Shown here piece by piece: positions 45,660 to 60,087 of a stretch of DNA of 64,000 bases. Source of the DNA: an uncultured Anaerolineales bacterium (GTDB lineage: Bacteria; Chloroflexota; Anaerolineae; B4-G1); assembly GCA_964528475.1 (NCBI GenBank), contig CAZGSX010000002.1, positions 5,641 through 69,640 on the forward strand, given 5' to 3'. How positions within the stretch are numbered: position 1 is the first letter of the stretch; each line of letters starts with the position of its first letter. The position numbers and the translations under genes were made by a program. Under the pieces are notes generated by a model. That model saw only the letters and a program-made list of their open reading frames with translations, had not been told where the DNA came from and did no database searches.

Positions 45660-45750
45660 AGGAGAAGCATACTCGTGAGGCCCCAGAAGCACGATTCTTC
45701 CACCGTCGTGCCCTGACGGTGGCTGCCGTAGCCAACTACCGAGAGGAGAA

Positions 45751-46095
45751 ATGAACATGAAGATTATCCATGCCCTGGGGGCGCCGGAGGCGCCCAATCC
45801 CCACAATGTGAGCGCGCGAGCGCTGCACGATTCGGAGCACGTGCAGGTGTCGATGGTCACCCTGGAGCCGGGCGAGAACCTAAAGCGGCATGTCACACCG
45901 GTCGATGTCTTTTTCTATGTCATCGAAGGCAACGGCATCGTCGAGATCGGCGACGAACAAGAGCCTGTCTCCGCCGACATGCTGATCGACAGCCCCGCTG
46001 GCATTCCACACCGCCTGTTGAACGAGAGCGATGACACCTTCCGCTTCCTCGTGGTGAAGACCCCGCGCCCAGTCCGGGCCACCAAAGTGCTGTAG
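45751..46095 (+). CDS. cupin domain protein
   Basis: Cupin beta-barrel motifs with His residues. Preceded by GAGAGGAG. Confidence 0.6.
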   Translation: MNMKIIHALGAPEAPNPHNVSARALHDSEHVQVSMVTLEPGENLKRHVTPVDVFFYVIEGNGIVEIGDEQEPVSADMLIDSPAGIPHRLLNESDDTFRFLVVKTPRPVRATKVL

Positions 46096-46109
46096 GGGAG
46101 GGACAGATC

Positions 46110-47906: not shown

Positions 47907-48239
47907 ATGAATCATATACCCGAGTTGGCCAGGTTCTTCAAAGCCCTCGGTGACGAGACCCGATTGCGTCTAGTAGCCTTGCTGGCACGGCAGGAGCGCG
48001 GAAGCGCCCTCTGCGTGGGCCGGCTGGCGCACGAACTGGATACGACAGCCTCCAACGTCTCTCAGCATCTGCGCGTGCTTAAGGACCTGGGATTGGTGCA
48101 CAAGGAACGGCGGGGGTATCGGATTCACTACTTCCTGGATGAAGAACAGGTGACAGCCTATGGCGAGGCTGCCCAGGAGTTGCTGGGGATGGAGCTCTGC
48201 GGTGGATCTTCATCGGAGGATCAACCGGCGCAAGAATAG
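47907..48239 (+). CDS. ArsR/SmtB-family metalloregulator
   Basis: 'LGDETRLRLVALL' wHTH signature. Cys residues in the alpha3 region (ALCVGRLA). Confidence 0.8.
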   Translation: MNHIPELARFFKALGDETRLRLVALLARQERGSALCVGRLAHELDTTASNVSQHLRVLKDLGLVHKERRGYRIHYFLDEEQVTAYGEAAQELLGMELCGGSSSEDQPAQE

Positions 48240-48317
48240 CGCACGTTACAGTCCGGTGGGAGCTGCCTCGGTCCTGTCGGGAAGACGCTGGGAGACGGAG
48301 ATCGAATAGCAGAGGCG

Positions 48318-49499
48318 ATGAGCAACCATCCAAACTCCGCGACCACGAACGACGAGTACAGGGATTTCGAATTCAACCTCCGAGAGCTGGCTGGCTCGAT
48401 GGGGGACTTCGGCACCCTGTTTCCCCTTGCCATCGGGTATATCGCCGTCAATGGGCTCAATCCCGCCGGATTGTTCATCATGATGGGCCTGGCCAACATC
48501 GCGCTGGGCCTGATCTACAGACTCCCGATGCCTCTGGAGCCGAAGAAGGTCGTGGCGGTCACAGCTATCTCGCAAGAGTGGCCCCCTTCGCTTATCCACG
48601 CCTCCGCCTTCAGCCTGGGCCTGATCTGGTTTCTGCTTGTCTTCTCCGGCCTGCTACGAAGAATTGTCTCGATGACCCCACTCTTCTTGGTACGCGGCAT
48701 TCAGATCGCTCTGGGGGTGATGCTGGGCTGGCGTGCCATCGAGATGATGAGGCCGGCTCCGCTGCTCGGTCTGGTGGCCGTGCTGATCGCTCTCGTGCTG
48801 CGCGAGAACCGCTACGCGCCAGCAGCCCTGGTGATCATGGCGCTTGGCATGGGCTTGATGGCTTGGCGGGGAGAGCTACAAGAAGTGGTCGTCTTCGACA
48901 TCACCCTGCCGCCGCTCACATTTCCGCACTTGAGTGAAATGTGGGAGGCAATGGTCCTGGCCGGCTTTGCTCAGATCCCGCTCTCCATCACCAACGCCGT
49001 CATCGCCGCCGCGGCGCTGATCCGAGAGTACTTTCCCGACAAGCCAGTGACCGAACGCAAGCTGATGCTGAATATGGGCGTGATCAACGTGATTGTGTCC
49101 TTCTTCGGAGGCATGCCCACGTGTCACGGCGCGCAGGGATTTGCGGGCCAGTACTACTTTGGAGCCAGGACAGGGGGCACGCCCATCCTGGAGGGTCTCA
49201 TCGAGATCTCTCTGGGGCTCTTCCTCAGCCGATCCATCGCCAACATCCTGATGAGCTTCCCCGTGGCGCTCATCGGAGGCATGATGTTTATGGTAGCGGT
49301 TCAGCTGGCCAAGGGGGCGATGAGACTGCGGGGATGGAAACTAGGACTGGCGTTGACGACCGCCGCTGTCTCTGTGGTCACCAATATGGCAGTGGGTTTC
49401 GTCATTGGATTGGCCCTCACTCATCTGCTGCGGAATCTGAAGGAGCGGGGCAAGCTAGCCTATCTCCTTCCGGAAGAGGAGTTCTTCACGGATGAGTGA
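48318..49499 (+). CDS. MOT1-family (MFS-type) molybdate/tungstate-like transporter
   Basis: Two conserved MOT1 motifs: 'ELAGSMGDFGTLFPL' and 'CHGAQGFAGQYYFGARTG'. About 10 TM segments. Confidence 0.65.
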   Translation: MSNHPNSATTNDEYRDFEFNLRELAGSMGDFGTLFPLAIGYIAVNGLNPAGLFIMMGLANIALGLIYRLPMPLEPKKVVAVTAISQEWPPSLIHASAFSLGLIWFLLVFSGLLRRIVSMTPLFLVRGIQIALGVMLGWRAIEMMRPAPLLGLVAVLIALVLRENRYAPAALVIMALGMGLMAWRGELQEVVVFDITLPPLTFPHLSEMWEAMVLAGFAQIPLSITNAVIAAAALIREYFPDKPVTERKLMLNMGVINVIVSFFGGMPTCHGAQGFAGQYYFGARTGGTPILEGLIEISLGLFLSRSIANILMSFPVALIGGMMFMVAVQLAKGAMRLRGWKLGLALTTAAVSVVTNMAVGFVIGLALTHLLRNLKERGKLAYLLPEEEFFTDE

Positions 49500-49819
49500 C
49501 GCTACCCCAGGATTGAGATCAGCTGCGGGTTGCCGGGGGGATATGTCCCGGCTAGAGCGCCACGCCGTCCGAGAACGCCTGAAGAGCGAAGCCGGACATA
49601 ACTAAGACAGGACCGTGCAAGCTCGTCCGGTTGAACACGACGAGGCGCTCGCTACAGGACGCTGTTGTCGCCCGCGCGGGGTGACATCCAGAGGCCACCC
49701 AGGTCGAGAACGGTGGCCGGCTCATGACTGCCCTGTGCATACCGTTCCTTTCCAGTATCGCGTTTCTTGCCAGGGGCGCATAAGTGCTGAGAAGATAGGA
49801 GGGATAAGAACGAGGACCC

Positions 49820-50761
49820 ATGACCCACACACAGAGTCCAACCCCCGCCATCGAAGTCGAAGGTCTCACCAAGACGTACGGGCCACGCGATAGGGGAGTC
49901 CTTGCTGTGGACCACGTCGCATTTGGTGTCAAGCGAGGCGAGGTCTTCGGACTGCTGGGCCCGAACGGGGCCGGCAAGACGACGACCATCCGCATGCTCA
50001 CGGGCTTGACCCGGCCGGACGCCGGTGAGGCTCGGGTGCTGGGGCTTGACCTGGCGCATGAGCTGCCGGGCATCAAGAAGCGGATCGGCGTCGTACCCGA
50101 GCAATCGAATCTTTATAGTGAGCTGTCGGCCCGAGACAATTTGATCTTTATGGCGCAGCTGTACGGGGTGCCGCGACCGGAACGAGGGCCGCGAGCCGAC
50201 CGGCTATTACGTCGGTTCCGGTTGGAGCAAAAACGGGATACCTCCTTTGGGAAGCTTTCCAAGGGGATGAAACGGGCGCTCACCATCGCTGCCGCCCTCA
50301 TCCACCAACCTCAACTCCTCTTCCTGGACGAGCCCACGGGAGGACTGGATGTCGTGGCGGCTCGTGGCCTAAGAGCCCTCATCGAACGGCTGCGCGACCA
50401 AGGGGTGACGATCTTCTTGACAACCCACTACCTTGATGAAGCAGAACGGCTGGCCGATCGGGTAGCGCTGCTGGTGGCTGGCCGCGTCGTCGCTGTCGAC
50501 ACCGTGGGGGGACTAAAGGGGCGGGTTACGGACGACGAGACAATCGTGGAGATACGTTACCGGGGCCGGCCGAAATCCGACCGCATCGAGCTCCACCACG
50601 GGCAGGGGGCATCCAGGGTGCGGGCGGCGTTGGATCGGGCACAGGCTGGAGGGTGGGAGGTCATCAGCATCGACACGCTTCGCCCCTCCCTGGAGGATGC
50701 CTTCATCGAGCTGACAGGGCTGAGCGCTGAGGTGATGCTGGCCGAAAAAGGAGGGCGGTAA
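49820..50761 (+). CDS. ABC transporter ATP-binding protein (ABC-2/DrrA-like)
   Basis: Walker A 'GPNGAGKTT', ABC signature, Walker B 'LLFLDEPT'. Confidence 0.85.
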   Translation: MTHTQSPTPAIEVEGLTKTYGPRDRGVLAVDHVAFGVKRGEVFGLLGPNGAGKTTTIRMLTGLTRPDAGEARVLGLDLAHELPGIKKRIGVVPEQSNLYSELSARDNLIFMAQLYGVPRPERGPRADRLLRRFRLEQKRDTSFGKLSKGMKRALTIAAALIHQPQLLFLDEPTGGLDVVAARGLRALIERLRDQGVTIFLTTHYLDEAERLADRVALLVAGRVVAVDTVGGLKGRVTDDETIVEIRYRGRPKSDRIELHHGQGASRVRAALDRAQAGGWEVISIDTLRPSLEDAFIELTGLSAEVMLAEKGGR

Positions 50762-51492
50762 TGTGGCGGGACAGCTTGCGGGGTCTGCTCTACGTGGCGT
50801 GGAAGGACATGCGCGCTTACTACTTCAAACCACCCAACATCAGCTGGGGCATGCTATTCCCAGGGGCGCTCATCCTCGCCTTTGCGGTACGGACGCCCGG
50901 CGACCTGCGAGCTCTCATCCCGGGATTGGTCGCCATGACCGCCCTCTTCAGTGCAACGTCGATGGAGGCCATTGTCATCACATTTGAGCGGCGCACGGGC
51001 GCGCTGGAGCGGCTGCTACTCGCGCCTATGACTCTCCCAGCGATGCTTGCAGGCAAGGTACTGGGCGGCATGCTATTCGGATTCACCATCAGCGGGGTCG
51101 TGCTGTTGGGCGTGAGCCTAGGTTTCGGGGTGGCCATGTGGCGGGTTCCCGCCGCGCTCCTGGCGCTCTGCTTCTCTACAGCTGCCTTCTCGGCGCTGGG
51201 AGCCCTGGTATCCGTGGCCGTGCAGGAGGTGTTCGAGGCCCAGACGCTGGCCAATGCCATCCGTTTCCCGATGATTTTCCTGTGCGGCGTGTTCGTGCCG
51301 GTGGAGGAGTTGCCGGGTACACTGCCCACCGTAGCGCGTCTTCTACCCCTGACGTACGCGGTGGAGGGATTGGACATCGCCCTGGCACGCGGTACCGCCT
51401 CGGCAATGGTGCTCCATCTTGCCGTACTGGCGGGTTTCACAGGGGCACTGTTCTCCGTCGCCACGGCGATTCTGCGCCGCCGGCTGGACTAG
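50761..51492 (+). CDS. ABC-2 type transporter permease
   Basis: Six-TM ABC-2 topology, overlapping the stop of the upstream ATPase. Confidence 0.75.
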   Translation: MWRDSLRGLLYVAWKDMRAYYFKPPNISWGMLFPGALILAFAVRTPGDLRALIPGLVAMTALFSATSMEAIVITFERRTGALERLLLAPMTLPAMLAGKVLGGMLFGFTISGVVLLGVSLGFGVAMWRVPAALLALCFSTAAFSALGALVSVAVQEVFEAQTLANAIRFPMIFLCGVFVPVEELPGTLPTVARLLPLTYAVEGLDIALARGTASAMVLHLAVLAGFTGALFSVATAILRRRLD

Positions 51493-51777
51493 GTCGATCG
51501 CGGAGTGGATTTCACCCTTGCATCCCTACCGCTGGCAGACAGATCGCCGGGTTCGTCGGCCGCGGTGAGGCGAGACTTGACGGGACCTATAGGACAGGAG
51601 GTCGGGTTTCCAAGCGACGGCAGATACCTCCCGTCCTCGAACAGGATCAAACCCCACGCAGGGTCGACGGATAGACCCAGTGCAGACGAGGGACTTGACA
51701 ATCCAGCGGCTCGAGGTAGATTATATGCATAGCGCACATAAGTGGAGCCCGGATAGTCGAGCTGGAACGAGGCTAAG

Positions 51778-52182
51778 ATGAACCACGGACAACTAGATGA
51801 GCACGGGCACTGTCACTGCCGGGGCGGACAGATCCAGGGTTTCATCCGCCCGCGCCTGTTGCTTCAACTCTCGAAGAAGCCCGCTCACGGCTACGAGCTG
51901 TTGGAAGTACTGGAGAGCGAGAACCTGCCCACACCGGACCCCAGCACCCTCTATCGTACGCTACGTCATTTCGAAGAAGAAGGACTGGTCCATTCCACCT
52001 GGGACACAAGCGGTGCTGGGCCGGCGCGTCGCGTCTACGAGCTAACCGACCAAGGGGTGGAGTTCTTGCATGCCTGGGCGGTGAACATCCGCCGCATCCG
52101 CAGCCGATTAGGCAAGTTCTTGGCCGAGTACGAAGCTCGGTTTCAGATTCACACAGAAGAGAGAGCTGAAACCAATGTGTGA
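51778..52182 (+). CDS. PadR-family transcriptional regulator with a His/Cys-rich N-terminal extension
   Basis: 'HGYELLEVLE...STLYRTLRHFEEEGLV' PadR wHTH. N-terminal 'DEHGHCHCRGG'. Confidence 0.75.
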   Translation: MNHGQLDEHGHCHCRGGQIQGFIRPRLLLQLSKKPAHGYELLEVLESENLPTPDPSTLYRTLRHFEEEGLVHSTWDTSGAGPARRVYELTDQGVEFLHAWAVNIRRIRSRLGKFLAEYEARFQIHTEERAETNV

Positions 52183-52399
52183 GCATGATGTCCATCAGAG
52201 CCATCACGCCCACTGCGAGCCTCCGGTCCACGCCGCATGCTGCTGTGGCCCGTCCGTGGGCAGGCCAGGCCTCCCCTGCACGCATCGCTTTCCTACGAGA
52301 GAGAAACGCATTGCCCGACTGCAAGCGCAGCTTAAAGACTTGGAGGGCGAGGCCCAGGCCGCAAAGGGGCGCATGGCCGCATTGCGAGCCGCCGACTAG
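52175..52399 (+). CDS. small His/Cys-rich protein with a C-terminal coiled coil, translationally coupled to PadR
   Basis: ATGTGTGA overlap with the PadR stop. 74 aa: 'HQSHHAHCEPPVHAACCCGP' followed by a heptad region (RIARLQAQLKDLEGEAQAAK). High GC3. Confidence 0.45.
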   Translation: MCEHDVHQSHHAHCEPPVHAACCCGPSVGRPGLPCTHRFPTREKRIARLQAQLKDLEGEAQAAKGRMAALRAAD

Positions 52400-52687
52400 C
52401 GAGTGGGGTAGTTGCGATGCACTTCGCTTCAGGGGTGCATTGTCACCGCACCGATGGCGGAGGTCTGTCTCCGTACTCACAGAGAGCGCACCCGATACGT
52501 GGCAACACATCCCAGCATTCAGACCGGGAACGTGCCCTCATCCAGAAGACAGGCGATTCTTACAGTGGAATGAAGATCAAAGTGGACGGCTTCGTCTGCG
52601 GTTCGTGTATCAAGGCCTGCCCGCAGGAAGAAGCCCTGGGCTGCTGGGCAAGAGCGTGGCAGGGCTCAAGAAGAGACGGAGAATCTG

Positions 52688-53002
52688 ATGACGATCTCGA
52701 TCATTAAGACGAGGGGTTTCAGGGACTTCCCGCGGAACAGCTCAGAGATAGCGCCACAGCGCCTTATCGACAGCGACAACGTAACTGCACTGTTGGTGAA
52801 TGTGGATGCCGATCAAGCAATAGAGCCGTGCCTCATGTCTGCCGCCGTGCTCTACTACGTCATCGAGGGAAGCGGCAGTCTCATCGTTGAAGGTGAGCAG
52901 GCTGACCTTGAAACCGGTTCACTGGTGCTCGTTCCTCCTGGAACTACGCGGAGCATTTCCGCAACTGAACCGCTGCGTGTGCTGGCCGTACAAGTGCGAT
53001 GA
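52688..53002 (+). CDS. small His-free cupin-like protein (paralog A)
   Basis: 104 aa. GGAG RBS. About 50% identical to the ORF at 57233. Cupin-like 'VLYYVIEGSGSLIVEGEQADL...LVLVPPGT' with no His. Confidence 0.55.
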   Translation: MTISIIKTRGFRDFPRNSSEIAPQRLIDSDNVTALLVNVDADQAIEPCLMSAAVLYYVIEGSGSLIVEGEQADLETGSLVLVPPGTTRSISATEPLRVLAVQVR

Positions 53003-53252
53003 ACGGCAGAGCGTGGGGCGGCCGATAGCCTCTTGTGGTCCTGACAGACCAGGCGCCGGCACTCCGACAGGGGAACCTACGCTCGATCTGCGGAGGCTGC
53101 AGACTCAGCGCTGCCGTCCGACATTTCGTCGGGAGGGCGCAGGTTGGAGAGCTTCGCCCCCGAAGACAAGTCAAGAGAAACGTGGTGCCGCTGACGCAAA
53201 ATGCGAGAGAACTCATGCTGTCACCGCCCTGAGTGTATCGTCCTGAGAAGGA

Positions 53253-55250
53253 GTGCTTATGTCACGGCGAACTGATGCTGCTGGCCAAGAGAGGAGACAG
53301 TCAGGCCCCGGGAAAGCGGGGGAACGGGGCCGTGACCGCGGCCCTGGTCGGTCGCGCCCCGGAGGTGGGAGACCGGGGAGTGGCGCAAAGGGACAGGGAC
53401 CTCAGTTGTCTGGACCCGCTTGGCCCATTCTGCGGAGGCTGTTGCGTACCATGCGGCCCCACGCTCGCGTCTTGGCTGGCGTCATGCTGGCTGCGGTGGC
53501 GACGACGGCGATCGAGCTCGCCCCACCCTGGATCATCCGCCTCTCTGTGGACCGCTACATCCTCGGCGGGCAGCCAGGGCGGACCTGGTGGGCGGCGGTG
53601 GGCCTGCTCGGGCTCTCTCTGGTGCAGGGCGCGGTGGACTTCGCCCGTCTCTATCTTGGCGCCCAAACCGGGCAGCGGATCGTGTTCGACCTGCGCAACA
53701 GCGTGTTTGAGCACCTGACCCGCCTCTCGTTCTCGTTCTACGATCAGGCGCGAACAGGTGACCTGATGTCGCGGGTCACAGCGGACACCGACGTATTGAG
53801 CGACTTCTTCGGCCGGGCCGCGGTGATCGTGCTCAACAACCTGCTCACCCTGCTTGGCATCCTGGTTGTCCTCCTCATCTGGGACTGGCGGCTGGGCCTG
53901 CTCTACGTCTGCTTTCTACCCCTGGTCGTGCACGGTCAATGGGTTTACGCGCGACGGGTACGCCCTGCAATGGCCCGGGTTCGCCGCTCACTGTCGGCCT
54001 TGACAAGCGCCCTCCAGGAGAGCCTGGCTGGCATCCTGGTGATCAAGCTCTTTGGGCGCGAAGCTTTTGAGCGGGAGAGGATTGCTCAGCAGAGCAAAGC
54101 ATATCGGGAAGCCAACATTGGCACAGCACGTATCACTTCCCTGTGGATGCCCTACGCCAACGTCATCATGGGTGTGGCGACCGCGGTGGTGATTTGGGTT
54201 GGGGGCAGTGGCGTGATCGGCGGTCTCATCACCCTGGGTACACTGATCGGCTTCACCACCTACATCCAGATGCTGCTTCGGCCCATCCGCCAGACGGGGA
54301 TGATGCTGAATGTGGTCATGCGCTCCATGGCTGCGGCCGAGCGCGTGTACGAGGTGCTCGACACCGAACCCGACGTCCGGGACGCCCCCGGTGCCTATCC
54401 CCTGCCGCCCGTTGAGGGATACGTCCGCTACGAAGGGGTCACTTTTGCCTACGATGGGGGCCCGGCAGGGTCAGAAGCGCTGCGGGACGTGGGTCTGGAG
54501 GCCGAGCCAGGCGAGATGGTGGCCTTGGTGGGTCCCTCTGGAGCTGGCAAGAGCACGCTCGTCCACCTGCTCCCCCGTTTCTACGAACCGCAGAAGGGGC
54601 GGATAAGCATTGATGGATACGATGTTCGGGAGGTTACAGTGCGGAGCCTGCGCGACGCCATTGGGATAGCCCTCCAGAGCGTGTTTCTGTTTGACGCCTC
54701 GATTGGTGAGAACATCGCTTACGGTAACCCCCGCGCCACCCAGGACCAGATCGAGTGGGCTTCACGAACAGTCCAGATGGACAAGTTCATCCGCTCACTA
54801 CCTCTGGGCTACGGCACGCCGGTCGGTGAGCGCGGTGTGCGTCTCTCCGGTGGACAAAAACAACGCATCGCCCTGGCCCGCGTGTTGCTCACCGATCCAC
54901 GTATCCTGATCCTGGATGAGCCGACCTCCAGCGTCGATGCCGAGACAGAGCGCCGGATGCAGGAGGCACTGACCGAGGTACGCGCTGGACGTACGACGTT
55001 TGTGATTGCTCACCGGCTGTGGACAGTCCAGGAGGCCGACCAAATTCTGGTCCTCGACGACGGGCGCATTGTCGAGCGTGCCCGCGGTAGGCACGGCCAA
55101 TCGGCCCACGAGGCCCTGGTGGCGGCGGACGGTCTTTATCGGCAACTGTACGACCTCCAATTTCAGGCGGAGGCACTCCAGGACACGCGGCTGCCGGAGA
55201 GGGGCACCACGGCTGCACGTGAATCGGTTGTGGAAAGGAGGGGAGGATGA
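53253..55250 (+). CDS. ABC exporter, fused TMD-NBD (type I, MsbA-like), first subunit of a probable heterodimer
   Basis: Six-TM domain plus an NBD with 'GPSGAGKST', 'LSGGQKQRIALAR' and 'ILILDEPTSSVD'. The Arg/Gly-rich N-terminal 60 aa of the ORF is probably not translated; the start is likely near 53407-53449. Confidence 0.85.
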   Translation: MLMSRRTDAAGQERRQSGPGKAGERGRDRGPGRSRPGGGRPGSGAKGQGPQLSGPAWPILRRLLRTMRPHARVLAGVMLAAVATTAIELAPPWIIRLSVDRYILGGQPGRTWWAAVGLLGLSLVQGAVDFARLYLGAQTGQRIVFDLRNSVFEHLTRLSFSFYDQARTGDLMSRVTADTDVLSDFFGRAAVIVLNNLLTLLGILVVLLIWDWRLGLLYVCFLPLVVHGQWVYARRVRPAMARVRRSLSALTSALQESLAGILVIKLFGREAFERERIAQQSKAYREANIGTARITSLWMPYANVIMGVATAVVIWVGGSGVIGGLITLGTLIGFTTYIQMLLRPIRQTGMMLNVVMRSMAAAERVYEVLDTEPDVRDAPGAYPLPPVEGYVRYEGVTFAYDGGPAGSEALRDVGLEAEPGEMVALVGPSGAGKSTLVHLLPRFYEPQKGRISIDGYDVREVTVRSLRDAIGIALQSVFLFDASIGENIAYGNPRATQDQIEWASRTVQMDKFIRSLPLGYGTPVGERGVRLSGGQKQRIALARVLLTDPRILILDEPTSSVDAETERRMQEALTEVRAGRTTFVIAHRLWTVQEADQILVLDDGRIVERARGRHGQSAHEALVAADGLYRQLYDLQFQAEALQDTRLPERGTTAARESVVERRGG

Positions 55251-57058
55251 CCATCCGCGGCGGATTCATGGGTCGTTTGCGGGGCGGCGAACAAGAGAAA
55301 AGGTATCGCCTGTCACAACTGGATCGCCAAGCGCTGGACACGCTCTGGCGCTACCTCCGGGTCCACCGTGGCCGTCTGCTCCTTGCGCTCCTGGCTATGC
55401 TCACCGTCACGGCGACCACGCTGACCGCACCCTATCTGACCAAAGTGGCACTCGACACCTACATCGCGACCGGGGACCTGCGCGGACTGACGCTGATCTC
55501 GTTGCTCTACCTGACCATCACCGGCGTCTACTGGCTAGCCACGTACTGGCAGGGGTATCTCTCCTCGTGGGTTGGGCAGCACATCGTCTATGCTATCCGC
55601 CGCGACCTTCTGGCGCAAGTGCTCCGCCAGTCTATGGCCTTCCACGAACAAGAGCGGGTGGGCCAGATCGTCTCGCGACTGACCAATGACGTGAACGCAC
55701 TGGCTGACCTGGCCTCCAGCGGTGCCCTCAACCTGATCAACGACGCGCTCTCTCTGCTGGGCATCGTCGTCGTTATGATGCTCCTCGACGTCCGGCTCGC
55801 CGTAGTGACCCTGGTCTCAGTCCCCGTCGTTCTTGTCAGCATGGGGGTCCTGGGCAAGCAGATGCGCCGCACGTACCGCGACGTGCAGCAGGCCCTGGCC
55901 GAGGTCAACACCGGCGTCGAGCAGGGGGTGACAGGGATGCGCGTCGTGCAGTCACTCTCGCGCGAGACATTCACATTGGAGGAGTTCCAGAACCTGAGCT
56001 TGCGCAACATGCGCGCCAACCTGCGAGCTGCTACGCTCTTTGCCGCTGTGTTTCCGATCATGACGATCACCAACGCGCTGGGACTGGCTCTCGTGCTGGG
56101 CTACGGTGGCGCACGGGTGGCCAGTGGCGCCATCACCATCGGAGTCCTCCTCGCCTTCATCGGCTACGTGAACCGCTTCTTCGGTCCCCTCAGAGAGTTG
56201 AGCTTGGTGTATAGCACCTTCCAATCCGCGGCTGCCTCCCTGGATCGAATTGCCGACTACATGAGCCGCGAACCCGAGGTTTTCGAACCTGCGGAGCCCC
56301 GACACCCAGCAGGAGGGTTCGAGGGGGAGATCAGATTCGAGCACGTGACCTTCGGGTATGGAGACGATCCAGTGCTCCACGACTTGAGCCTCTACGTGCC
56401 CGCGGGGCAGACAGCGGCGTTGGTTGGTCCAACTGGCGCGGGTAAGAGCACCATCGCCAAGCTCCTCGCCCGCCTATACGACGTGGACGAGGGGACCGTG
56501 CGAGTGGACGGGATAGATGTGCGGGAGATCTCTCGCTCCGATCTGGACAGCCTGATCATCATCGTCCCCCAGGACATATTCCTGTTTGCGGATACAGTCG
56601 GCGAGAACATCCGTTATGGCGATCCAAGCGCCGATGAGGAGCAGGTGAAGGCGGCCGCGCGCCGAGCTCAGGCGCACGATTTCATTACCCAGCTCCCCCG
56701 CGGGTACCAGACCCAGGTGGGCGAGCTAGGCGCGATGCTGTCGGGCGGGCAGAAGCAGCTGATCGCCTTTGCCCGCGCCCTCCTAGCCGACCCCAAGATC
56801 CTGGTGCTCGACGAGGCGACAGCCAACGTGGACGCCTACACCGAGGCTATGATTCAGCGGGCGATGGATGAAATCCGTCGCGACCGCACGACGGTGATCA
56901 TTGCCCACCGCTTCTCGACGCTACGGAAGGCAGATCGAATAGTGGTGCTGGACGAGGGGCGGATCGCGGGCCAGGGCGTCCACCAGGAGCTGATCGAGTC
57001 CAACCCGACCTACCAGCGGCTGTATCGGCGCCAGTGGGCGGGCGAGGAGTCCAGCTGA
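55247..57058 (+). CDS. ABC exporter, fused TMD-NBD, second subunit
   Basis: ATGA overlap with the upstream gene. 'GPTGAGKSTIAKL', 'LSGGQKQLIAFAR' and 'ILVLDEATANVD'. Confidence 0.85.
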   Translation: MTIRGGFMGRLRGGEQEKRYRLSQLDRQALDTLWRYLRVHRGRLLLALLAMLTVTATTLTAPYLTKVALDTYIATGDLRGLTLISLLYLTITGVYWLATYWQGYLSSWVGQHIVYAIRRDLLAQVLRQSMAFHEQERVGQIVSRLTNDVNALADLASSGALNLINDALSLLGIVVVMMLLDVRLAVVTLVSVPVVLVSMGVLGKQMRRTYRDVQQALAEVNTGVEQGVTGMRVVQSLSRETFTLEEFQNLSLRNMRANLRAATLFAAVFPIMTITNALGLALVLGYGGARVASGAITIGVLLAFIGYVNRFFGPLRELSLVYSTFQSAAASLDRIADYMSREPEVFEPAEPRHPAGGFEGEIRFEHVTFGYGDDPVLHDLSLYVPAGQTAALVGPTGAGKSTIAKLLARLYDVDEGTVRVDGIDVREISRSDLDSLIIIVPQDIFLFADTVGENIRYGDPSADEEQVKAAARRAQAHDFITQLPRGYQTQVGELGAMLSGGQKQLIAFARALLADPKILVLDEATANVDAYTEAMIQRAMDEIRRDRTTVIIAHRFSTLRKADRIVVLDEGRIAGQGVHQELIESNPTYQRLYRRQWAGEESS

Positions 57059-57232
57059 ACGCCTGGTGGATGCCGAGGCGCACGGCTGTCAGATTCGATC
57101 GCCCAGGGGCTCAGTGGCGCAGGAACAACGTTCGCACGTGGCACGATTCTCAGTTCGGGGGAGGATCTCCAAAGTTAACGCAAGGTAGCAAACCAATGTG
57201 CCCGAACGAAACGAAAAGATAGGGAGGGCCGA

Positions 57233-57547
57233 ATGACTATCTCGCTCGTCAAGACGAAGCGCCTGAAGAACTTGCCATCAAAGAGCCCGGAGATTAAACC
57301 GCAGCGGCTGCGGGAGGCGAACGATCTGGCCGCCGTATTGGTTAACCCGGACGTCGGCCAGACGACAGAGCCGTGTCAGATGTCATCCGGGGTGCTCTAC
57401 TACGATATCGCGGGAAGCGGTAGCCTAACCGTCGAGGAAGGGCAGGCTGACCTCCAGACCAGTTCGCTGGCGCTGGTTCCTGCTGGCACTGGGCGGAGCA
57501 TCTCGGTGGTGGGAGCAACGCGCGTGCTGGCGGTGCAAGCCTCATGA
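57233..57547 (+). CDS. small His-free cupin-like protein (paralog B)
   Basis: 104 aa. AGGGAGGG RBS. Paralog of the ORF at 52688..53002. Stop overlaps the LmbE-like start (ATGA). Confidence 0.55.
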   Translation: MTISLVKTKRLKNLPSKSPEIKPQRLREANDLAAVLVNPDVGQTTEPCQMSSGVLYYDIAGSGSLTVEEGQADLQTSSLALVPAGTGRSISVVGATRVLAVQAS

Positions 57548-58335
57548 GTGGACGGGCTTCGCTGAATCAGCCACGAACGGTGATTGCCGTGCTTGCCCAT
57601 CCAGACGACGAGGTATTTCGCTGCGGCGGGACGTTGGCACTCCTGGCCCAGCGAGGAGTTCGGGTCCACACCCTGACGGCAACGCGGGGTGAGGCAGGGT
57701 CTCGCGGCGAACCACCCCTCTGTACAGCCGGCCAGCTATCCGCCGTGCGAGAGGTAGAGCTACGCTGCGCCTGTCTCGCGCTGGGAATCGCCCCGCCGCG
57801 CCTACTTGACTATCGGGACGGGACACTGTCCGACGTGAATCAACAAGAGGGCGCAGCCCACGTGCTTGACGCCGTGCGCGAACTCCGGCCCCAGGCGCTC
57901 ATCACCTGGCCGCCACACGGGCTCTCCGGTCACCCCGACCACGTGGCGGTGAGCGGCTGGACACGGTTGGCCTTTGAAGCAACCCAGGCCACGGGCCTGG
58001 AGGCCCCGCTGGCGCTGTATCACATGGTGATCCCCGAGCGTGTTGCGGAGGCTGTCGGATTCTCGGGCCTGCACGCCACGCACGATGACGACGTAACCCT
58101 TACAGTCGACGTCACGCCGGTGTGGGAGGAGAAACTGAGTGCTATACGCTGCCACCGCACACAAACAGGGGAGAGCCCTATTCTGGAAGCCCCGGAGGAA
58201 CGACAGCGGCTGTTTCTGGGCACCGAGCATTTCGAGCAGGTGGTAGATCAAGAAAAGGGCGATGTACTAAGAAACTATCTGCTAGAGAAGGACCTGAAAT
58301 CAAGGAGGACAAGGACGAATGACCAACGCGATTGA
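57544..58335 (+). CDS. PIG-L/LmbE-family N-acetylglucosaminyl deacetylase or amidase
   Basis: 'VIAVLAHPDDEVFRCGGTLAL' zinc-binding motif. 17-nt overlap with the downstream ABC gene. Confidence 0.8.
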   Translation: MSGRASLNQPRTVIAVLAHPDDEVFRCGGTLALLAQRGVRVHTLTATRGEAGSRGEPPLCTAGQLSAVREVELRCACLALGIAPPRLLDYRDGTLSDVNQQEGAAHVLDAVRELRPQALITWPPHGLSGHPDHVAVSGWTRLAFEATQATGLEAPLALYHMVIPERVAEAVGFSGLHATHDDDVTLTVDVTPVWEEKLSAIRCHRTQTGESPILEAPEERQRLFLGTEHFEQVVDQEKGDVLRNYLLEKDLKSRRTRTNDQRD

Positions 58336-59326
58336 GGTGCAGAACCTGACAAAGTACTACGGAGAGCTGCTCGCCGTCGACCAGATCAACTTCGAAGTTA
58401 GCGAAGGCGAGGTGTTCGGCTTTCTGGGCCCAAACGGCGCCGGAAAGACCACGACCCAGCGCATGCTGACTACGCTACTGGAACCGACGGATGGGCGCAT
58501 CATGATCAACGGCCACGATCTGGAACACGACCCGGTGCCCATCAAGCGACGCATGGGGTTGGTGCCGGAGGAATCGAACGTCTACACGGAGCTCACGGCC
58601 TGGGATAACCTGATGTTCACGGCGCGGCTATATCTGGTTGAGCCCAGCGAGCGTGCCGAGCGTGCCCGTGATCTGCTGGAGACCTTCGGGCTGTGGGAGA
58701 AGCGGGACGTGAAGGTCGAGGATTTCTCCAAGGGGATGCGGAGACGATTGAGCATCGCCATGGCGATCATCCACCAGCCAGGGCTCCTCTTTCTGGACGA
58801 GCCAACACCGGGCCTGGATGCTCAGAGCACGCGTGCGATTCGCGACCTGATTCGCGAGCTCAATGCAGAAGGCACCACGATTTTCCTGACCACCCACCAG
58901 ATCGAGGAGGCGAACCAGCTCTGCGATCGGGTGGCGATCATCAACCACGGTCAGATCGCCGCAATCGACACGCCGGAGCAGCTCAAGGCTGCCTTCCGAA
59001 AGGTGCAGTCGGTAGAAGTGGCGGTGGAGCCGGATGGACAGGCCCACGGGGAGTCACTCGAGGCGCTGCCGGGCGTCACCCAATCGATCAAGATGGGAGA
59101 CAAGTGGCGGTTGTACACCGAGCAACCGGGGGCGCTCCTGACCCACGTGGTGGACTATGCCCAGTCGCACGATCTGGAGGTGGTGAGCCTGTGCACGCTG
59201 GGGCCGAGTCTCGAGGACGTCTTCCTGGAGATCACAGGCCAGGAGATCGGCGCGGTGCGGCACGAGACAGGGGAATCGGAGGGGAAAAAGGGAGGAGCAA
59301 GAGGGATGCAGGGGGGAAAACGATGA
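58319..59326 (+). CDS. ABC transporter ATP-binding protein (ABC-2 type)
   Basis: 'GPNGAGKTT', 'LLFLDEPTPGLD' and ABC signature. Confidence 0.85.
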   Translation: MTNAIEVQNLTKYYGELLAVDQINFEVSEGEVFGFLGPNGAGKTTTQRMLTTLLEPTDGRIMINGHDLEHDPVPIKRRMGLVPEESNVYTELTAWDNLMFTARLYLVEPSERAERARDLLETFGLWEKRDVKVEDFSKGMRRRLSIAMAIIHQPGLLFLDEPTPGLDAQSTRAIRDLIRELNAEGTTIFLTTHQIEEANQLCDRVAIINHGQIAAIDTPEQLKAAFRKVQSVEVAVEPDGQAHGESLEALPGVTQSIKMGDKWRLYTEQPGALLTHVVDYAQSHDLEVVSLCTLGPSLEDVFLEITGQEIGAVRHETGESEGKKGGARGMQGGKR

Positions 59327-60087
59327 ACGAAGGAATTGTGAAGCGACTGACGGATGAAGTGACCCAGGCGTGGACAGTGGCGATTAAGGACATCAAGGTC
59401 TACTACCTCAAGCCTGGGATGATCATGTTCGGCTTGATGATGCCCTTCTTCATGTTCTTCTCCTTCTCGGTGAAGCGCGAGATGGCGGCCGCGCAGGGAG
59501 TGGCGCGCCTTCTGGCGCTGACGACGTTCTTCACAGCGGCATCGACCGGGCCGTTTATCATCCCCTTGGAGAGGCGGCTGGGGACGTACGACCGGCTGCT
59601 GGCGGCGCCGATGTCGCTCCTTTCGCTGCTGCTAGGCAAGATTGCGGTCGGCGCGTTTTTCGCCATCGCGGTGTCTCTTGTGTCGTTGGTTGTTGGCGTG
59701 GCGATCTTCGGCGCGACCGTGGTGTCTCCCGGGTTTCTGGTCGCCGGCGTGATTATTGGATCGTTCTCCTTCTCGACCCTGGGCCTGATCTTCGGCTCCA
59801 TCCCCACCCGTAACCCCGGGGATGTGCAGATGCCCAGCACTCTACTCCGCTGGGGCCTGCTTTTCATCAGCGGCATCTTTGTCCCACTGACGGAGATGGG
59901 CGCGGTGGCACGCACGGTGGCTTACCTGTCTCCTCTCACCTATGCGCAAGATCTCATGAATCACGCAGTGCTCAATGCGGGACTGTTCAATCCGTGGTTG
60001 GACGTGATTGTGCTTCTGCTGGGGTGCGTGGTGTTCCTCATACCATCGCTCCTGATGCATCGGAGGAGCCGACGGCTGGGATACTGA
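59323..60087 (+). CDS. ABC-2 type transporter permease
   Basis: ATGA overlap with the ATPase. Six TM segments. Confidence 0.75.
   Translation: MNEGIVKRLTDEVTQAWTVAIKDIKVYYLKPGMIMFGLMMPFFMFFSFSVKREMAAAQGVARLLALTTFFTAASTGPFIIPLERRLGTYDRLLAAPMSLLSLLLGKIAVGAFFAIAVSLVSLVVGVAIFGATVVSPGFLVAGVIIGSFSFSTLGLIFGSIPTRNPGDVQMPSTLLRWGLLFISGIFVPLTEMGAVARTVAYLSPLTYAQDLMNHAVLNAGLFNPWLDVIVLLLGCVVFLIPSLLMHRRSRRLGY

What the first reader, a model, noticed from the sequence alone, without database searches (positions are those of the whole stretch)
51778..60087. PadR-controlled efflux island: His/Cys-rich regulator pair, duplicated His-free cupins, heterodimeric ABC exporter, LmbE-like amidase and an ABC-2 exporter
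About 8.3 kb are organised in two modules. In module 1 a PadR with an HGHCHC N-terminal tail is translationally coupled to a 74-aa His/Cys-rich coiled-coil protein. After a gap comes a 104-aa cupin-like protein and two fused TMD-NBD ABC exporter genes that overlap (ATGA). In module 2 a paralogous 104-aa cupin-like protein overlaps an LmbE/PIG-L-family deacetylase or amidase, which in turn overlaps an ABC-2 ATPase and permease pair. The small-protein-plus-exporter arrangement thus occurs twice, with the two small proteins about 50% identical and both lacking every His that normally binds metal in a cupin. The metal-ligand-rich regulator pair suggests a metal- or thiol-reactive signal. An LmbE-type amidase next to an exporter resembles thiol-conjugate (Mca-like) detoxification followed by export. 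I do not recognise this combination as a described operon type.
Basis: partly seen in the sequence, partly recalled or inferred. Interest (0 to 1): 0.55.

Follow-up and report, generated by a model that had tools for sequence, protein, structure and literature searches.

The report
PadR-controlled amidase and exporter operon
This is a real gene cluster, conserved in uncultured Chloroflexota, in which a repressor with a cysteine/histidine-rich tail and a tiny cysteine-rich partner protein appear to switch on a sugar-amide hydrolase, an unusual small barrel protein and membrane export pumps, most likely to get rid of a toxic metal, metalloid or thiol-reactive compound, though no substrate has been shown.

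Summary
The cluster is a rearranged copy of an operon conserved in Anaerolineae-type Chloroflexota: PadR, a small Cys/His-rich protein, an optional membrane polyferredoxin, a Cys/Met cupin, a PIG-L (LmbE) hydrolase and an ABC exporter.

- **Conservation:** in at least 60 of 78 related loci the cupin is directly followed by LmbE, and 42 of 62 such pairs overlap by 4 nt. The exporter is either ABC-2 or a half-transporter pair.
- **Rearrangement here:** The cupin is duplicated and a heterodimeric ABC exporter sits between the copies.
- **Regulation:** one sigma-70-like promoter with an overlapping palindrome (TATATG-N7/9-CATATA) precedes PadR here and in most related loci examined (exact TTGACA in 13 of 15).
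- **Sensor parts:** the PadR Cys/His tail and the MC-His-CCC plus helix partner are conserved. The partner resembles DUF5320 below threshold, and its family has at least 882 members.
- **Context:** elsewhere this pair sits in front of ArsP-type permeases or beside ArsR-CDF. The cupin-LmbE pair often neighbours ArsR/ArsD/ArsA, thioredoxin and DsbD genes.

Best reading is an autorepressed, thiophilic-metal(loid)- or thiol-stress-induced "modify and export" operon. The substrate is unknown. I rate it a new variant of a known kind, of moderate interest.

The parts
51695..51724 (+). Sigma-70-like promoter (TTGACA, 16-18 nt, TAGATT/GATTAT) in front of PadR
   Evidence: It is one of only two distinct promoter-like positions in 16 kb. 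The same TTGACA-17-TAtAaT architecture lies about 72-85 nt upstream of PadR in most related loci, and about 131-135 nt upstream in two. Thirteen of the 15 loci examined have an exact TTGACA.
51722..51740 (+). Putative PadR operator, the palindrome TATATG-N7-CACATA, overlapping the -10 and start region
   Evidence: The TATATG-N7/9-CATATA palindrome is conserved at the same place in most of those loci, and is weak or unclear in L009, L010 and L047. It is the only match inside the island; the few other weak matches in the 64-kb window lie elsewhere. Binding has not been tested.
51778..52182 (+). PadR-family repressor (134 aa, single wHTH plus C-terminal helix) with a His/Cys-rich N-terminal tail (HGHCHC)
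   Evidence: PF03551 at 65 bits. PhaQ-like at 77 bits, below its cut-off of 139. A tail with two Cys (C-x-C or C-C-P) just before R-G-G-x-I/V-x-G-F is conserved in 14 of 15 orthologous loci.
52175..52399 (+). 74-aa partner protein with an N-terminal MC-His-rich-CCC segment and a C-terminal 32-residue helix; translationally coupled to PadR by an 8-nt overlap
   Evidence: Conserved in 10 loci. The family has at least 882 members. AF2 predicts residues 1-40 as disordered and helix 42-73 at pLDDT above 95. Hits to DUF5320 are 13-17 bits, below the gathering score of 27.
52543..52641 (+). Relic (last 33 codons) of a NapH-like membrane polyferredoxin gene
   Evidence: 24/33 residues identical to the C-terminus of the 273-aa Fer4_5 protein that sits between the small gene and the cupin in L005, L011 and L012 (E 4e-14).
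52688..53002 (+). Cupin1, 104 aa, Cys48/Met50/Arg88 variant cupin with no His; this is the copy with the ancestral-like sequence
   Evidence: Cupin_2 at 33.8 bits. It is 51-80% identical to the listed family members, and 67-80% identical to the Anaerolineales orthologues that precede LmbE. The AF2 model has pLDDT 86.7 and matches minimal cupins with TM 0.7-0.8.
53259..55250 (+). ABC exporter half-transporter 1 (TMD-NBD); start uncertain (ATG 53259 behind GAAGGAG, or ATG 53451 as the gene caller chose)
   Evidence: ABC_membrane at 175.8 bits and ABC_tran at 116 bits. Best NCBIfam hits are MsbA-related, and all are below the equivalog cut-offs. Sequence read.
55247..57058 (+). ABC exporter half-transporter 2 (TMD-NBD), ATGA overlap with the first
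57233..57547 (+). Cupin2, 104 aa, divergent paralogue that is translationally coupled to LmbE
   Evidence: 58% identical to cupin1. It keeps C48, M50, Y56 and R88. It is the single exception among 73 non-redundant family members at V58D, E60A, E70G, G77S and A92V. It has no Pfam hit.
57544..58335 (+). PIG-L/LmbE-family zinc hydrolase (263 aa)
   Evidence: PF02585 at 108.8 bits, with AHPDD and HPDH motifs present. Scores are BshB2 103.8, MshB 84.5, BshB1 78.6 and Mca 65.5 bits, all below cut-off. The closest solved structures are MshB, TT1542 and diacetylchitobiose deacetylase.
58319..59326 (+). ABC-2 exporter ATPase (DrrA subfamily)
   Evidence: TIGR01188 at 337 bits against a cut-off of 312; it also has the DrrA1-3_C domain.
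59323..60087 (+). ABC-2 exporter permease
   Evidence: ABC2_membrane at 63.9 bits. DrrB at 40.7 bits, below its cut-off of 223.
47907..51492 (+). Context: upstream ArsR - MFS_MOT1 - ABC-2 ATPase/permease operon with its own promoter at 47846. It is syntenic with the PadR operon in L005 and L013; L010 and L054 carry parts of the same arrangement.
45751..46925 (+). Context: a canonical His-bearing cupin (45751-46095) followed by an intact NapH-like polyferredoxin (46110-46925), a paralogue of the deleted one
   Evidence: Cupin_2 at 57 bits; Fer4_5 and Fer4 domains; 67% identical to the L005 polyferredoxin.

Best explanation
The region 51695-60087 is most likely one long operon, autorepressed by PadR, from an Anaerolineales-type Chloroflexota genome.

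**Proposed mechanism**
- A PadR dimer sits on a palindrome that overlaps the -10 and start site of the only strong promoter.
- Release is triggered when a thiophilic metal or metalloid occupies, or a thiol-reactive compound oxidises or alkylates, two parts. One is the Cys/His-rich N-terminal tail of PadR. The other is the co-translated 74-aa partner, which has a flexible MC-His-CCC head on a coiled-coil helix.
- Candidate signals are As(III)/Sb(III), Cd, Zn, Cu and Hg.
- The induced genes then carry out 'modify and export'. A zinc PIG-L amidase or deacetylase works together with a small cupin whose metal-ligand histidines are replaced by an invariant Cys/Met/Arg pocket. Together they process a cytoplasmic N-acyl-glucosamine-type compound or thiol conjugate. 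ABC exporters (ABC-2, or a half-transporter pair) pump the product or the toxicant out.
- This genome carries a remodelled version: the polyferredoxin gene is deleted, the cupin is duplicated, and a heterodimeric ABC exporter is inserted between the copies.

**Shown:** gene content, conservation of gene order, translational coupling, the conserved promoter and palindrome, the conserved Cys/His motifs, the relic, and the duplication.

**Inferred:** repression by PadR, the nature of the signal, the physical cupin-LmbE partnership, and the substrate.
For: **Operon unit**
- All genes are on one strand. Starts and stops overlap for PadR/small, ABC1/ABC2, cupin2/LmbE, LmbE/ATPase and ATPase/permease.
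- There are only two distinct promoter-like positions in 16 kb, one in front of ArsR and one in front of PadR, and no convincing terminator.

**Regulation**
- TTGACA-17-TAtAaT followed by TATATG-N7/9-CATATA is conserved upstream of PadR: 13 of 15 loci have an exact TTGACA, and most of those carry the palindrome.
- It is the only such palindrome inside the island.
- PadR proteins are known palindrome-binding autorepressors of efflux and detoxification genes (PMC4534193, PMC5728393).

**Sensor**
- A two-Cys tail is present in 14 of 15 PadR orthologues.
- The partner protein keeps M1-C2, a CC(C) motif and the RFPTREERIA-LEEYL helix across 100 aligned homologues. Its head is predicted disordered and its helix is predicted with confidence.

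**Cargo varies but is always an exporter**
- PadR-small-ABC-2 (L051).
- PadR-small-PIG-L-ABC-2 (L047, L135).
- PadR-small-ArsP_1 permease (L133, L134).
- Small-ArsR-CDF (L049).

**Cupin-LmbE unit**
- LmbE directly follows the cupin in at least 60 of 78 loci. An exporter follows the cupin directly in 8 more.
- A 4-nt overlap is present in 42 of 62 pairs.
- C48, M50, Y56, R88 and Q102 are invariant in 73 non-redundant members.

**Metal(loid)/thiol context**
- Among 40 family loci of at least 6 kb, ArsR occurs in 13, thioredoxin_3 in 10, DsbD_TM in 10, DGC in 5, SBF (bile-acid/Na+ symporter family, to which Acr3 belongs) in 5, ArsP_1 in 4 and ArsD+ArsA in 3.
- None occurs in 24 non-family control loci.
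Against: - No experiment supports this. The signal and substrate are guesses from motifs and neighbours.
- His-rich stretches point to Ni, Zn, Co or Cu rather than As, so the metal cannot be named.
- ABC-2 and type-I ABC exporters usually move organic molecules, not bare ions.
- The LmbE misses the curated cut-offs for Mca, BshB2, BshB1 and MshB.
- I found no paper in the searched library linking bacillithiol to Chloroflexi in a relevant way. The single hit that mentions both is a vanadium review.
- In the window itself the adjacent ArsR is paired with a MOT1-type oxyanion transporter, not with ars genes.
- The control set for neighbourhood enrichment comes from other phyla and is searched with Chloroflexota queries, so it overstates the contrast.
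- Resistance genes cluster in islands anyway.
- A single conserved Cys plus Met and Arg in the cupin is not a known metal site.
- The large intergenic gaps (53003-53258 and 57059-57232) could hide internal promoters that are not under PadR control.
Confidence: 0.45

Rival explanations
1. It is a multidrug or antibiotic efflux operon of the LmrR-LmrCD type. PadR senses hydrophobic drugs in its dimer pocket. The ABC pumps extrude them, and LmbE inactivates or trims an N-acetylated or glycosylated antibiotic. The Cys/His motifs would be structural or incidental.
For: A PadR next to a heterodimeric ABC exporter is exactly the LmrR-LmrCD layout, and LmrR is autoregulatory (PMC4534193, PMC5428041). 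The ATPase falls in the DrrA (daunorubicin resistance) subfamily at 337 bits, above its cut-off of 312. This PadR is a short, single-domain protein like the subfamily-2 PadRs to which LmrR belongs (PMC5728393). PIG-L enzymes act on aminoglycoside and glycopeptide intermediates (established knowledge).
Against: The two-Cys tail and the CCC partner protein are conserved across many loci. That is hard to explain for a drug sensor. The same PadR-partner pair heads ArsP_1 permeases and sits beside ArsR-CDF. Neighbours are thiol, redox and metal genes rather than antibiotic biosynthesis or resistance genes.
Confidence: 0.2
2. [quoted passage not shown] LmbE would be the biosynthetic deacetylase (BshB- or MshB-like step) of a GlcN-based thiol. 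The ABC exporters (CydDC-like) would deliver the thiol, or its disulfide, to the envelope under redox or metal stress.
For: The best NCBIfam hit of LmbE is BshB2, followed by MshB. Some homologues carry the automatic JGI name 'N-acetylglucosamine malate deacetylase 2'. The half-transporters score 290-323 bits against CydC and CydD. Neighbours include thioredoxin, glutaredoxin, DsbD_TM and OsmC.
Against: All of these scores are below the curated cut-offs. No glycosyltransferase (BshA/MshA) or cysteine ligase (BshC/MshC) was seen among the genes listed around the loci inspected. The exporter type is interchangeable, ABC-2 or half-transporter, which fits detoxification better than a dedicated thiol exporter.
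Confidence: 0.15
3. It remodels the cell envelope. A PIG-L enzyme de-N-acetylates a GlcNAc-lipid or polysaccharide precursor on the cytoplasmic face, and an ABC-2 (Wzm/Wzt- or TagGH-like) or MsbA-like transporter flips it. This would parallel GlcNAc-PI de-N-acetylation before flipping in GPI synthesis.
For: PIG-L is the founding activity of the family. ABC-2 and MsbA-like transporters move lipid-linked glycans and lipids, and MsbA-related models are the top NCBIfam hits for both half-transporters.
Against: No glycosyltransferase or polysaccharide genes lie next to the cluster in any locus examined. An inducible Cys/His-rich repressor pair and ars, CDF and thioredoxin neighbours do not fit housekeeping envelope synthesis.
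Confidence: 0.08
4. The genes are an accidental juxtaposition and are not a functional unit; the small ORFs are not genes.
For: The automatic gene caller on identical contigs missed the 74-aa ORF and called a 167-aa ORF in another frame. Cupin2 has no Pfam hit. There are two sizeable intergenic gaps.
Against: Gene order is conserved in dozens of independent contigs from several Chloroflexota orders. A 4-nt coupling is present in 42 of 62 cupin-LmbE pairs. The 74-aa family has at least 882 members. The cupin family has invariant residues.
Confidence: 0.02

Closest known systems
LmrR-LmrCD of Lactococcus lactis (PadR subfamily-2 repressor controlling a heterodimeric ABC multidrug exporter; PMC4534193, PMC5428041)
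   Same: A short single-domain PadR sits directly upstream of, and on the same strand as, two overlapping TMD-NBD ABC genes. There is a palindromic operator at its own promoter, so autoregulation is likely.
   Different: This PadR has a conserved His/Cys-rich N-terminal tail and a translationally coupled Cys/His-rich coiled-coil partner, neither of which is described for LmrR. The ancestral cargo is cupin + PIG-L + ABC-2, not a half-transporter pair. The palindrome is TATATG-N7/9-CATATA. The effector is unknown.
Mycothiol S-conjugate amidase (Mca) and bacillithiol conjugate amidase (BshB2/Bca) detoxification, in which the conjugate is cleaved and then exported (established knowledge)
   Same: A PIG-L-family zinc hydrolase with intact AHPDD and HPDH motifs sits next to exporters. 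BshB2 is its best NCBIfam match.
   Different: Scores are far below the equivalog cut-offs: BshB2 103.8 against 195, and Mca 65.5 against 277. No thiol biosynthesis genes are seen nearby. An obligatory-looking cupin partner is not part of the Mca or Bca systems. No GlcN-based thiol is documented for Anaerolineae.
ars operons (ArsR-ArsD-ArsA-ArsB/Acr3, and the ArsP organoarsenical permease)
   Same: The regulator and its partner carry vicinal-cysteine motifs (C-x-C, CC, CCC). The same PadR-partner pair heads ArsP_1 permeases. The cupin-LmbE pair neighbours ArsR-ArsD-ArsA and ArsR-ArsP_1 in several loci.
   Different: The window itself has no ArsA, ArsB, ArsC, ArsD or Acr3. The regulator is PadR, not ArsR. 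The abundant histidines are not typical of As(III) sites. No arsenic chemistry is known for PIG-L enzymes or cupins.
DrrAB-type ABC-2 exporters
   Same: The ATPase passes the curated DrrA subfamily cut-off and carries the DrrA C-terminal domain. It is paired with an overlapping ABC-2 permease.
   Different: The permease is far below the DrrB cut-off (40.7 against 223). There are no polyketide genes, and the regulator type differs.
DUF5320 (PF17253), an uncharacterised family of small coiled-coil proteins from anaerobes
   Same: The size is similar and both have a flexible N-terminal part followed by a C-terminal helix. NCBI names three homologues 'DUF5320 domain-containing protein'. Weak hits cover most of the profile.
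   Different: Scores of 13-17 bits are below the gathering score of 27. The MC-His-CCC head is specific to this family. There is no functional literature on DUF5320.
Minimal single-domain cupins of unknown function (PDB 3d82, 3fjs, 1yhf, 2ozj, 1v70)
   Same: The fold is the same (TM 0.7-0.8, Foldseek E about 1e-7), and profile hits reach 3rns and 2ozj.
   Different: The His/His/Glu/His metal site is replaced by invariant Cys48/Met50/Val54/Arg88. The clade is small: 38 cluster representatives at E up to 1e-10 among 1.84 billion. It is always linked to PIG-L and exporters.

Membership tests
PadR family (PF03551) | Winged-HTH PadR domain scoring above Pfam's gathering score | tested here: met
   65.1 bits against 27, residues 28-98.
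PadR family (PF03551) | Binds a palindromic operator at its own or its target promoter as a dimer | not testable with these tools
   A conserved palindrome, TATATG-N7/9-CATATA, overlaps the -10 region. Binding is inferred only.
PhaQ (TIGR02719) PHB-responsive repressor | Equivalog score cut-off | tested here: not met
   77.3 bits against 139.35.
LmrR-LmrCD-type system | PadR repressor encoded next to a heterodimeric ABC exporter | tested here: met
   PadR at 51778, with ABC pair 53259-57058 downstream on the same strand. This layout is a local insertion and is shared by only some related loci.
LmrR-LmrCD-type system | Derepression by binding of hydrophobic drugs in the dimer interface | not testable with these tools
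The conserved Cys/His tail suggests a different effector.
DUF5320 (PF17253) | Pfam gathering score | tested here: not met
   The window protein has no hit. Homologues score 13.2-17.4 bits against 27. NCBI labels three homologues DUF5320.
Cupin superfamily (Cupin_2, PF07883) | Cupin beta-barrel domain | tested here: met
   Cupin1 scores 33.8 bits against 27.2. The AF2 model has pLDDT 86.7 and Foldseek TM 0.7-0.8 to cupins. Cupin2 has no Pfam hit but is 58% identical to cupin1.
Cupin superfamily (Cupin_2, PF07883) | Metal site G(X)5HXH(X)3-4E(X)6G ... G(X)5PXG(X)2H(X)3N | tested here: not met
   The spacing of both motifs is kept, but the ligand positions are C48, M50, V54 and R88. Both window copies have zero His.
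PIG-L / LmbE family (PF02585) | Domain above the gathering score, with AHPDD and HPDH zinc and catalytic motifs | tested here: met
   108.8 bits against 28.2. 'AHPDDE' and 'GHPDH' are present in the translation.
Mycothiol conjugate amidase Mca (TIGR03446) | Equivalog cut-off | tested here: not met
   65.5 bits against 277.15.
Bacillithiol deacetylase/amidase BshB2 (TIGR04000) | Equivalog cut-off | tested here: not met
   103.8 bits against 195.25.
Bacillithiol/mycothiol detoxification pathway | The genome makes the corresponding thiol (bshA/bshC or mshA/mshC) | not tested
   Only a 64-kb window and contig fragments are available. None of these genes was seen in the flanks inspected.
DrrAB-type ABC-2 exporter | ATPase in the DrrA subfamily (TIGR01188) | tested here: met
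   337 bits against 312.45.
DrrAB-type ABC-2 exporter | Permease in the DrrB subfamily (TIGR01247) | tested here: not met
   40.7 bits against 223.05. It is a generic ABC2_membrane at 63.9 bits.
ars (arsenic resistance) operon | Presence of ArsA, ArsB, Acr3, ArsC or ArsD in the unit | tested here: not met
   tblastn finds only ArsR and MOT1 in the window. ArsD/ArsA and ArsP_1 occur next to the cupin-LmbE pair only in other loci.

The most novel reading that the evidence does not exclude
The PadR with a Cys/His tail, together with its translationally coupled MC-His-CCC coiled-coil partner, is a previously undescribed two-protein sensor of thiophilic metals or metalloids. It is widespread in anaerobic Chloroflexota and beyond, with at least 882 partner proteins. 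It switches on interchangeable exporters: ABC-2, half-transporter ABC and ArsP-type permeases. The Cys/Met cupin + PIG-L pair would be a new enzymatic step of metal(loid)- or thiol-conjugate detoxification that precedes export.
Probability: 0.3. Interest if true: 0.7.

Novelty: new variant of a known kind. Interest (0 to 1): 0.5.

Why it matters
**Regulation.** PadR regulators are known as sensors of phenolic acids and drugs. A conserved PadR subfamily whose sensing parts are a Cys/His tail and a separate tiny Cys-rich coiled-coil protein would add a new sensing principle to the family. It would also give a first functional handle on DUF5320-like proteins, which have no literature.

**Enzymology.** The Cys/Met/Arg cupin is coupled by a 4-nt overlap to a PIG-L hydrolase in dozens of uncultured Chloroflexota. 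It is a compact and tractable candidate for a new detoxification step.

**Ecology.** These organisms are abundant in sediments, digesters and aquifers, where arsenic and metal cycling matter.

**If the drug-efflux rival is right instead,** the finding is an ordinary LmrR-like operon with unusual decorations.

Tried and rejected
1. **Regulatory RNA in the gaps.** Rfam at E up to 1 over 45000-61000 found nothing relevant. The 53003-53258 gap folds no better than shuffles (z -0.16).
2. **Relics of LmbE, PadR or the small gene in gaps 53003-53258 and 57059-57232.** These would show a fusion of two operons. Only short, non-collinear matches appeared and I rejected them. Only the polyferredoxin relic in 52400-52687 is significant.
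3. **Additional PadR operators** in front of cupin1, the ABC pair or cupin2. None was found.
4. **Cupin-LmbE gene fusions as Rosetta-stone evidence.** None occurs among the top 120 LmbE homologues, which are 237-300 aa long.
5. **A specific functional match for the cupin.** PDB sequence and fold searches returned only generic or uncharacterised cupins.
6. **Literature.** I searched for DUF5320, LmbE + arsenic resistance, PIG-L + arsenite + ArsR, PadR + ABC-2 + Chloroflexi, bacillithiol + Chloroflexi, and Rv3488 + cadmium. None described this operon.
7. **Naming the organism.** Exact cluster look-up returned no names. The assignment to Anaerolineales rests on the high amino-acid identity of most operon proteins (58-88%) to named MAG contigs.
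8. **The 167/169-aa ORF at 52179-52688** called by the automatic annotation. I rejected it in favour of the conserved 74-aa frame plus the relic.

Full report

Yes.

| Gene | Coordinates | Evidence |
|---|---|---|
| PadR | 51778-52182 | PF03551, 65 bits |
| 74-aa ORF | 52175-52399 | overlaps the PadR stop by 8 nt |
| Cupin1 | 52688-53002 | Cupin_2, 33.8 bits |
| ABC half-transporters | to 55250, and 55247-57058 | two TMD-NBD genes joined by ATGA |
| Cupin2 | 57233-57547 | overlaps LmbE by 4 nt |
| LmbE (PIG-L) | 57544-58335 | 108.8 bits, AHPDD and HPDH intact |
| ABC-2 ATPase | 58319-59326 | DrrA subfamily, 337 bits against a cut-off of 312 |
| ABC-2 permease | 59323-60087 | ABC2_membrane |

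The two cupins are 58% identical (E 3e-40; 74% over 167 nt of DNA). Neither contains a single histidine.

Identical copies of the region occur on four independent assemblies. There the automatic gene caller missed the 74-aa gene and called a 167-aa ORF in another frame.

**2. What is it? A conserved operon, rearranged here.**

The cupin belongs to a small family. I found 36 homologues in the 5.8-billion-protein search. The exhaustive profile search of 1.84 billion representatives gave 38 cluster representatives at E up to 1e-10.

All named hits are MAGs of Anaerolineales, Anaerolineae, Thermoflexales, Ktedonobacterales or Pelolinea. Most proteins of the operon are 58-88% identical to those of uncultured Anaerolineales contigs. 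I take that as the origin of the window.

The commonest gene order around the cupin is PadR, small protein, optional NapH-like membrane polyferredoxin, cupin, LmbE, ABC-2 ATPase, ABC-2 permease (L005, L006, L007, L010, L013, L022, L053, L054 and others).

- Among 78 cupins with at least 800 nt of downstream sequence, LmbE is the next gene in at least 60. An exporter is directly next in 8 more.
- In 42 of 62 cupin-LmbE pairs the LmbE start overlaps the cupin stop by exactly 4 nt, and most of the rest lie within 12 nt.
- The exporter after LmbE is ABC-2 in 16 cases and a half-transporter pair in 5. It is neither of these in 18 of the 39 cases with enough sequence.

The constant core is cupin + LmbE.

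**3. The local rearrangement.**

In L005, L011 and L012 a 273-aa polyferredoxin with TM helices and two CxxCxxCxxxCP motifs lies between the small gene and the cupin. The gene was therefore deleted.

An intact paralogue, 67% identical to the L005 protein, sits 6 kb upstream at 46110-46925. It lies behind a canonical His-bearing cupin at 45751-46095.

Cupin1 has the ancestral-type sequence. It is 67-80% identical to the cupins that precede LmbE in the Anaerolineales orthologues.

Cupin2 now occupies the coupled position in front of LmbE. It is the lone exception among 73 non-redundant family members at five near-invariant positions (V58D, E60A, E70G, G77S, A92V). It still keeps C48, M50, Y56 and R88.

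The half-transporter pair lies between the two copies. I found no convincing relics of LmbE or PadR in the other two gaps. The simplest history is a cupin duplication with insertion of the ABC pair, followed by relaxed or altered selection on cupin2.

**4. Regulation.**

A consensus scan finds only two distinct promoter-like positions in 16 kb. One is in front of ArsR (47846). The other is in front of PadR (51695-51724).

Immediately overlapping the -10 region is the palindrome TATATG-CATAGCG-CACATA (51722-40). Thirteen of the 15 PadR loci examined have an exact TTGACA. In most of these a -10-like hexamer about 17 nt downstream is followed by a TATATG-N7/9-CATATA palindrome; it is weak or unclear in L009, L010 and L047.

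It is the only such palindrome inside the island. No known RNA element or unusual fold lies in the gaps.

PadR proteins bind palindromes with an ATG/CAT core as dimers and repress detoxification and efflux genes, including their own (PMC5728393, PMC4534193). I therefore infer a single autorepressed transcription unit from about 51725 to 60087. Internal promoters cannot be excluded.

**5. The sensor pair.**

The PadR is short: a wHTH followed by one C-terminal helix, like subfamily 2. It carries an extra N-terminal tail.

In 14 of 15 orthologues this tail holds two cysteines (C-H-C, C-R-C or C-C-P) just before a conserved RGG-I/V-x-GF, usually preceded by histidines.

The 74-aa protein aligns with partners in nine other loci, and its family has at least 882 members. 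Conserved features are M1-C2, a His-rich stretch, a CC(C)GP motif and the segment RFPTREERIA-LEEYL-LQAEA-AV-ER.

AF2 predicts residues 1-40 as disordered and residues 42-73 as one confident helix. Hits to DUF5320 are consistent but below threshold, at 13-17 bits against 27. NCBI labels three homologues DUF5320. There is no functional literature on that family.

What the pair sits in front of elsewhere is informative:

| Arrangement | Loci |
|---|---|
| PadR-small-ABC-2 | L051 |
| PadR-small-PIG-L-ABC-2 | L047, L135 |
| PadR-small-split ArsP_1 permease | L133, L134 |
| small-ArsR-CDF cation efflux | L049 |

The cargo is always a membrane exporter, in neighbourhoods rich in ArsR, CsoR-like, thioredoxin_3, DGC, OsmC, chromate-transporter and MOT1 genes.

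**6. The enzyme pair.**

The cupin fold is confirmed (pLDDT 86.7; TM 0.7-0.8 to minimal cupins). Both cupin motifs keep their spacing, but the four ligand positions read Cys48, Met50, Val54 and Arg88.

C48, M50, Y56, G61, G63, R88, L99 and Q102 are invariant in 73 sequences, and most members have exactly one Cys. More distant clade members keep PC-x-M. Beyond about E 1e-10 the usual His returns.

This is not a known metal site. A pocket with a reactive Cys, a Met and an Arg suggests binding of an anionic or thiol-reactive ligand.

The LmbE has a complete zinc and catalytic motif set. It scores below the cut-offs for BshB2, MshB, BshB1 and Mca. Its clade is large in Chloroflexota, and none of the top 120 homologues is fused to a cupin.

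The tight 4-nt coupling suggests that the cupin is a stoichiometric partner of the hydrolase. That is an inference.

**7. Context pointing to metal(loid) or thiol stress.**

Where no ABC exporter follows cupin-LmbE, the neighbours include the following (Pfam-verified):

- ArsR-ArsD-ArsA (L094/L095, L115).
- ArsR-ArsP_1-thioredoxin_3-DGC (L081, L103/L104, L127).
- DsbD_TM.
- SBF-family permeases.

Counts among 40 family loci of at least 6 kb are as follows.

| Gene | Loci |
|---|---|
| ArsR | 13 |
| Thioredoxin_3 | 10 |
| DsbD_TM | 10 |
| DGC | 5 |
| SBF | 5 |
| ArsP_1 | 4 |
| ArsD+ArsA | 3 |

None was found in 24 control loci.

That control is from other phyla, so the contrast is inflated. Some of the family loci are also near-duplicates of each other. 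In the window the upstream ArsR goes with a MOT1-type oxyanion transporter, and a tungsten-type aldehyde:ferredoxin oxidoreductase lies nearby. No ars structural gene is present.

**8. Mechanism and rivals.**

My best reading, at about 0.45, has four steps.

- PadR represses its own promoter.
- A thiophilic metal or metalloid, or a thiol-reactive compound, engages the Cys/His tail and the CCC partner and releases it.
- Cupin + LmbE modify a cytoplasmic GlcN-amide or thiol conjugate.
- The ABC pumps export the product or the toxicant.

Rivals:

- An LmrR-LmrCD-like drug efflux operon (0.2). The layout and the DrrA hit fit, but the conserved Cys/His parts and the neighbours do not.
- Thiol biosynthesis and export (0.15). 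BshB2 is the best hit and the half-transporters give CydDC-like scores, but all are below cut-off and no BshA or BshC was seen.
- Envelope glycolipid de-N-acetylation and flipping (0.08).
- Chance (0.02), effectively refuted.

**9. Comparison and novelty.**

In kind this is a PadR-regulated detoxification and efflux operon, which is known. Four features are not described anywhere I could find:

- the Cys/His-tailed PadR subfamily;
- its coupled DUF5320-like CCC partner;
- the Cys/Met/Arg cupin clade;
- the fixed pairing of that cupin with a PIG-L hydrolase.

I therefore call it a new variant of a known kind, with interest 0.5. The most novel reading not excluded is a new two-protein metal(loid) sensor plus a new conjugate-processing step (probability about 0.3).

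Noticed in passing
window 45751-46925: A second cupin-polyferredoxin pair lies here. A canonical His-bearing Cupin_2 (114 aa, 57 bits) is followed 15 nt later by an intact 271-aa NapH-like Fer4_5 membrane polyferredoxin. That protein is 67% identical to the one that sits inside the PadR operon in other genomes. So cupin + polyferredoxin is itself a recurring pair.
   Followed up: partly
window 52543-52641 (frame of ORF 52417-52707): Pseudogene relic. Only the last 33 codons of the operon's polyferredoxin gene survive (KIKVDGFVCGSCIKACPQEEALG).
   Followed up: yes
window 40134-42101 (-), 47907-49499 (+): A tungsten/molybdenum-type aldehyde:ferredoxin oxidoreductase (AFOR_N + AFOR_C) lies 6 kb from an ArsR-regulated MFS_MOT1 (molybdate-transporter-like) gene. 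The ArsR next to the island may therefore control oxyanion (Mo/W) transport rather than arsenic resistance.
   Followed up: no
window 52179-52688: A 167/169-aa ORF in another frame covers the small gene's 3' part and the relic. Automatic annotation of identical public contigs called it as a gene in place of the conserved 74-aa ORF. It has no homologues or domains and is probably spurious.
   Followed up: partly
window 53253-53450: The first ABC half-transporter has an in-frame Arg/Gly/Pro-rich N-terminal extension of about 60 residues if it starts at ATG 53259, behind a GAAGGAG Shine-Dalgarno. The gene caller's start at 53451 would cut into the conserved N-terminal region, because the NCBIfam alignment begins at residue 59 of the long form.
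   Followed up: partly
window 57233-57547: Cupin2 is the only one of 73 non-redundant family members to differ at five near-invariant positions (V58D, E60A, E70G, G77S, A92V). This suggests relaxed or new selection after the duplication, even though it is the copy coupled to LmbE.
   Followed up: yes
L136 4603-10222; L049 6001-8122: The PadR-small pair also occurs next to a MOT1 gene, a Se/S-carrier protein and an AIRS-domain (SelD-like) gene (L136). The small protein occurs alone, without PadR, in front of ArsR and a CDF cation-efflux gene (L049).
   Followed up: no
L135 5287-5529: In one PadR-small-PIG-L-ABC-2 operon, the slot where the cupin usually sits is filled by an 80-aa two-TM membrane protein. 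Like the cupin, it overlaps the PIG-L start by 4 nt.
   Followed up: no
L012 1-70: Three tandem copies of a 22-nt unit (GATATTGACGGCGCTCCCCAA-like) lie at the contig start, upstream of PadR. They may be an assembly artefact or a repeat element.
   Followed up: no
window 10353-10426 (-): A single tRNA-Glu(CTC) is the only Rfam or ARAGORN hit in the 64-kb window.
   Followed up: no
window 44538-45329: A Crp/Fnr-type regulator (cNMP_binding + HTH_Crp_2) lies just upstream of the cupin-polyferredoxin pair. Similar Crp-like genes occur near DGC, thioredoxin and PadR clusters in L007 and L047.
   Followed up: no
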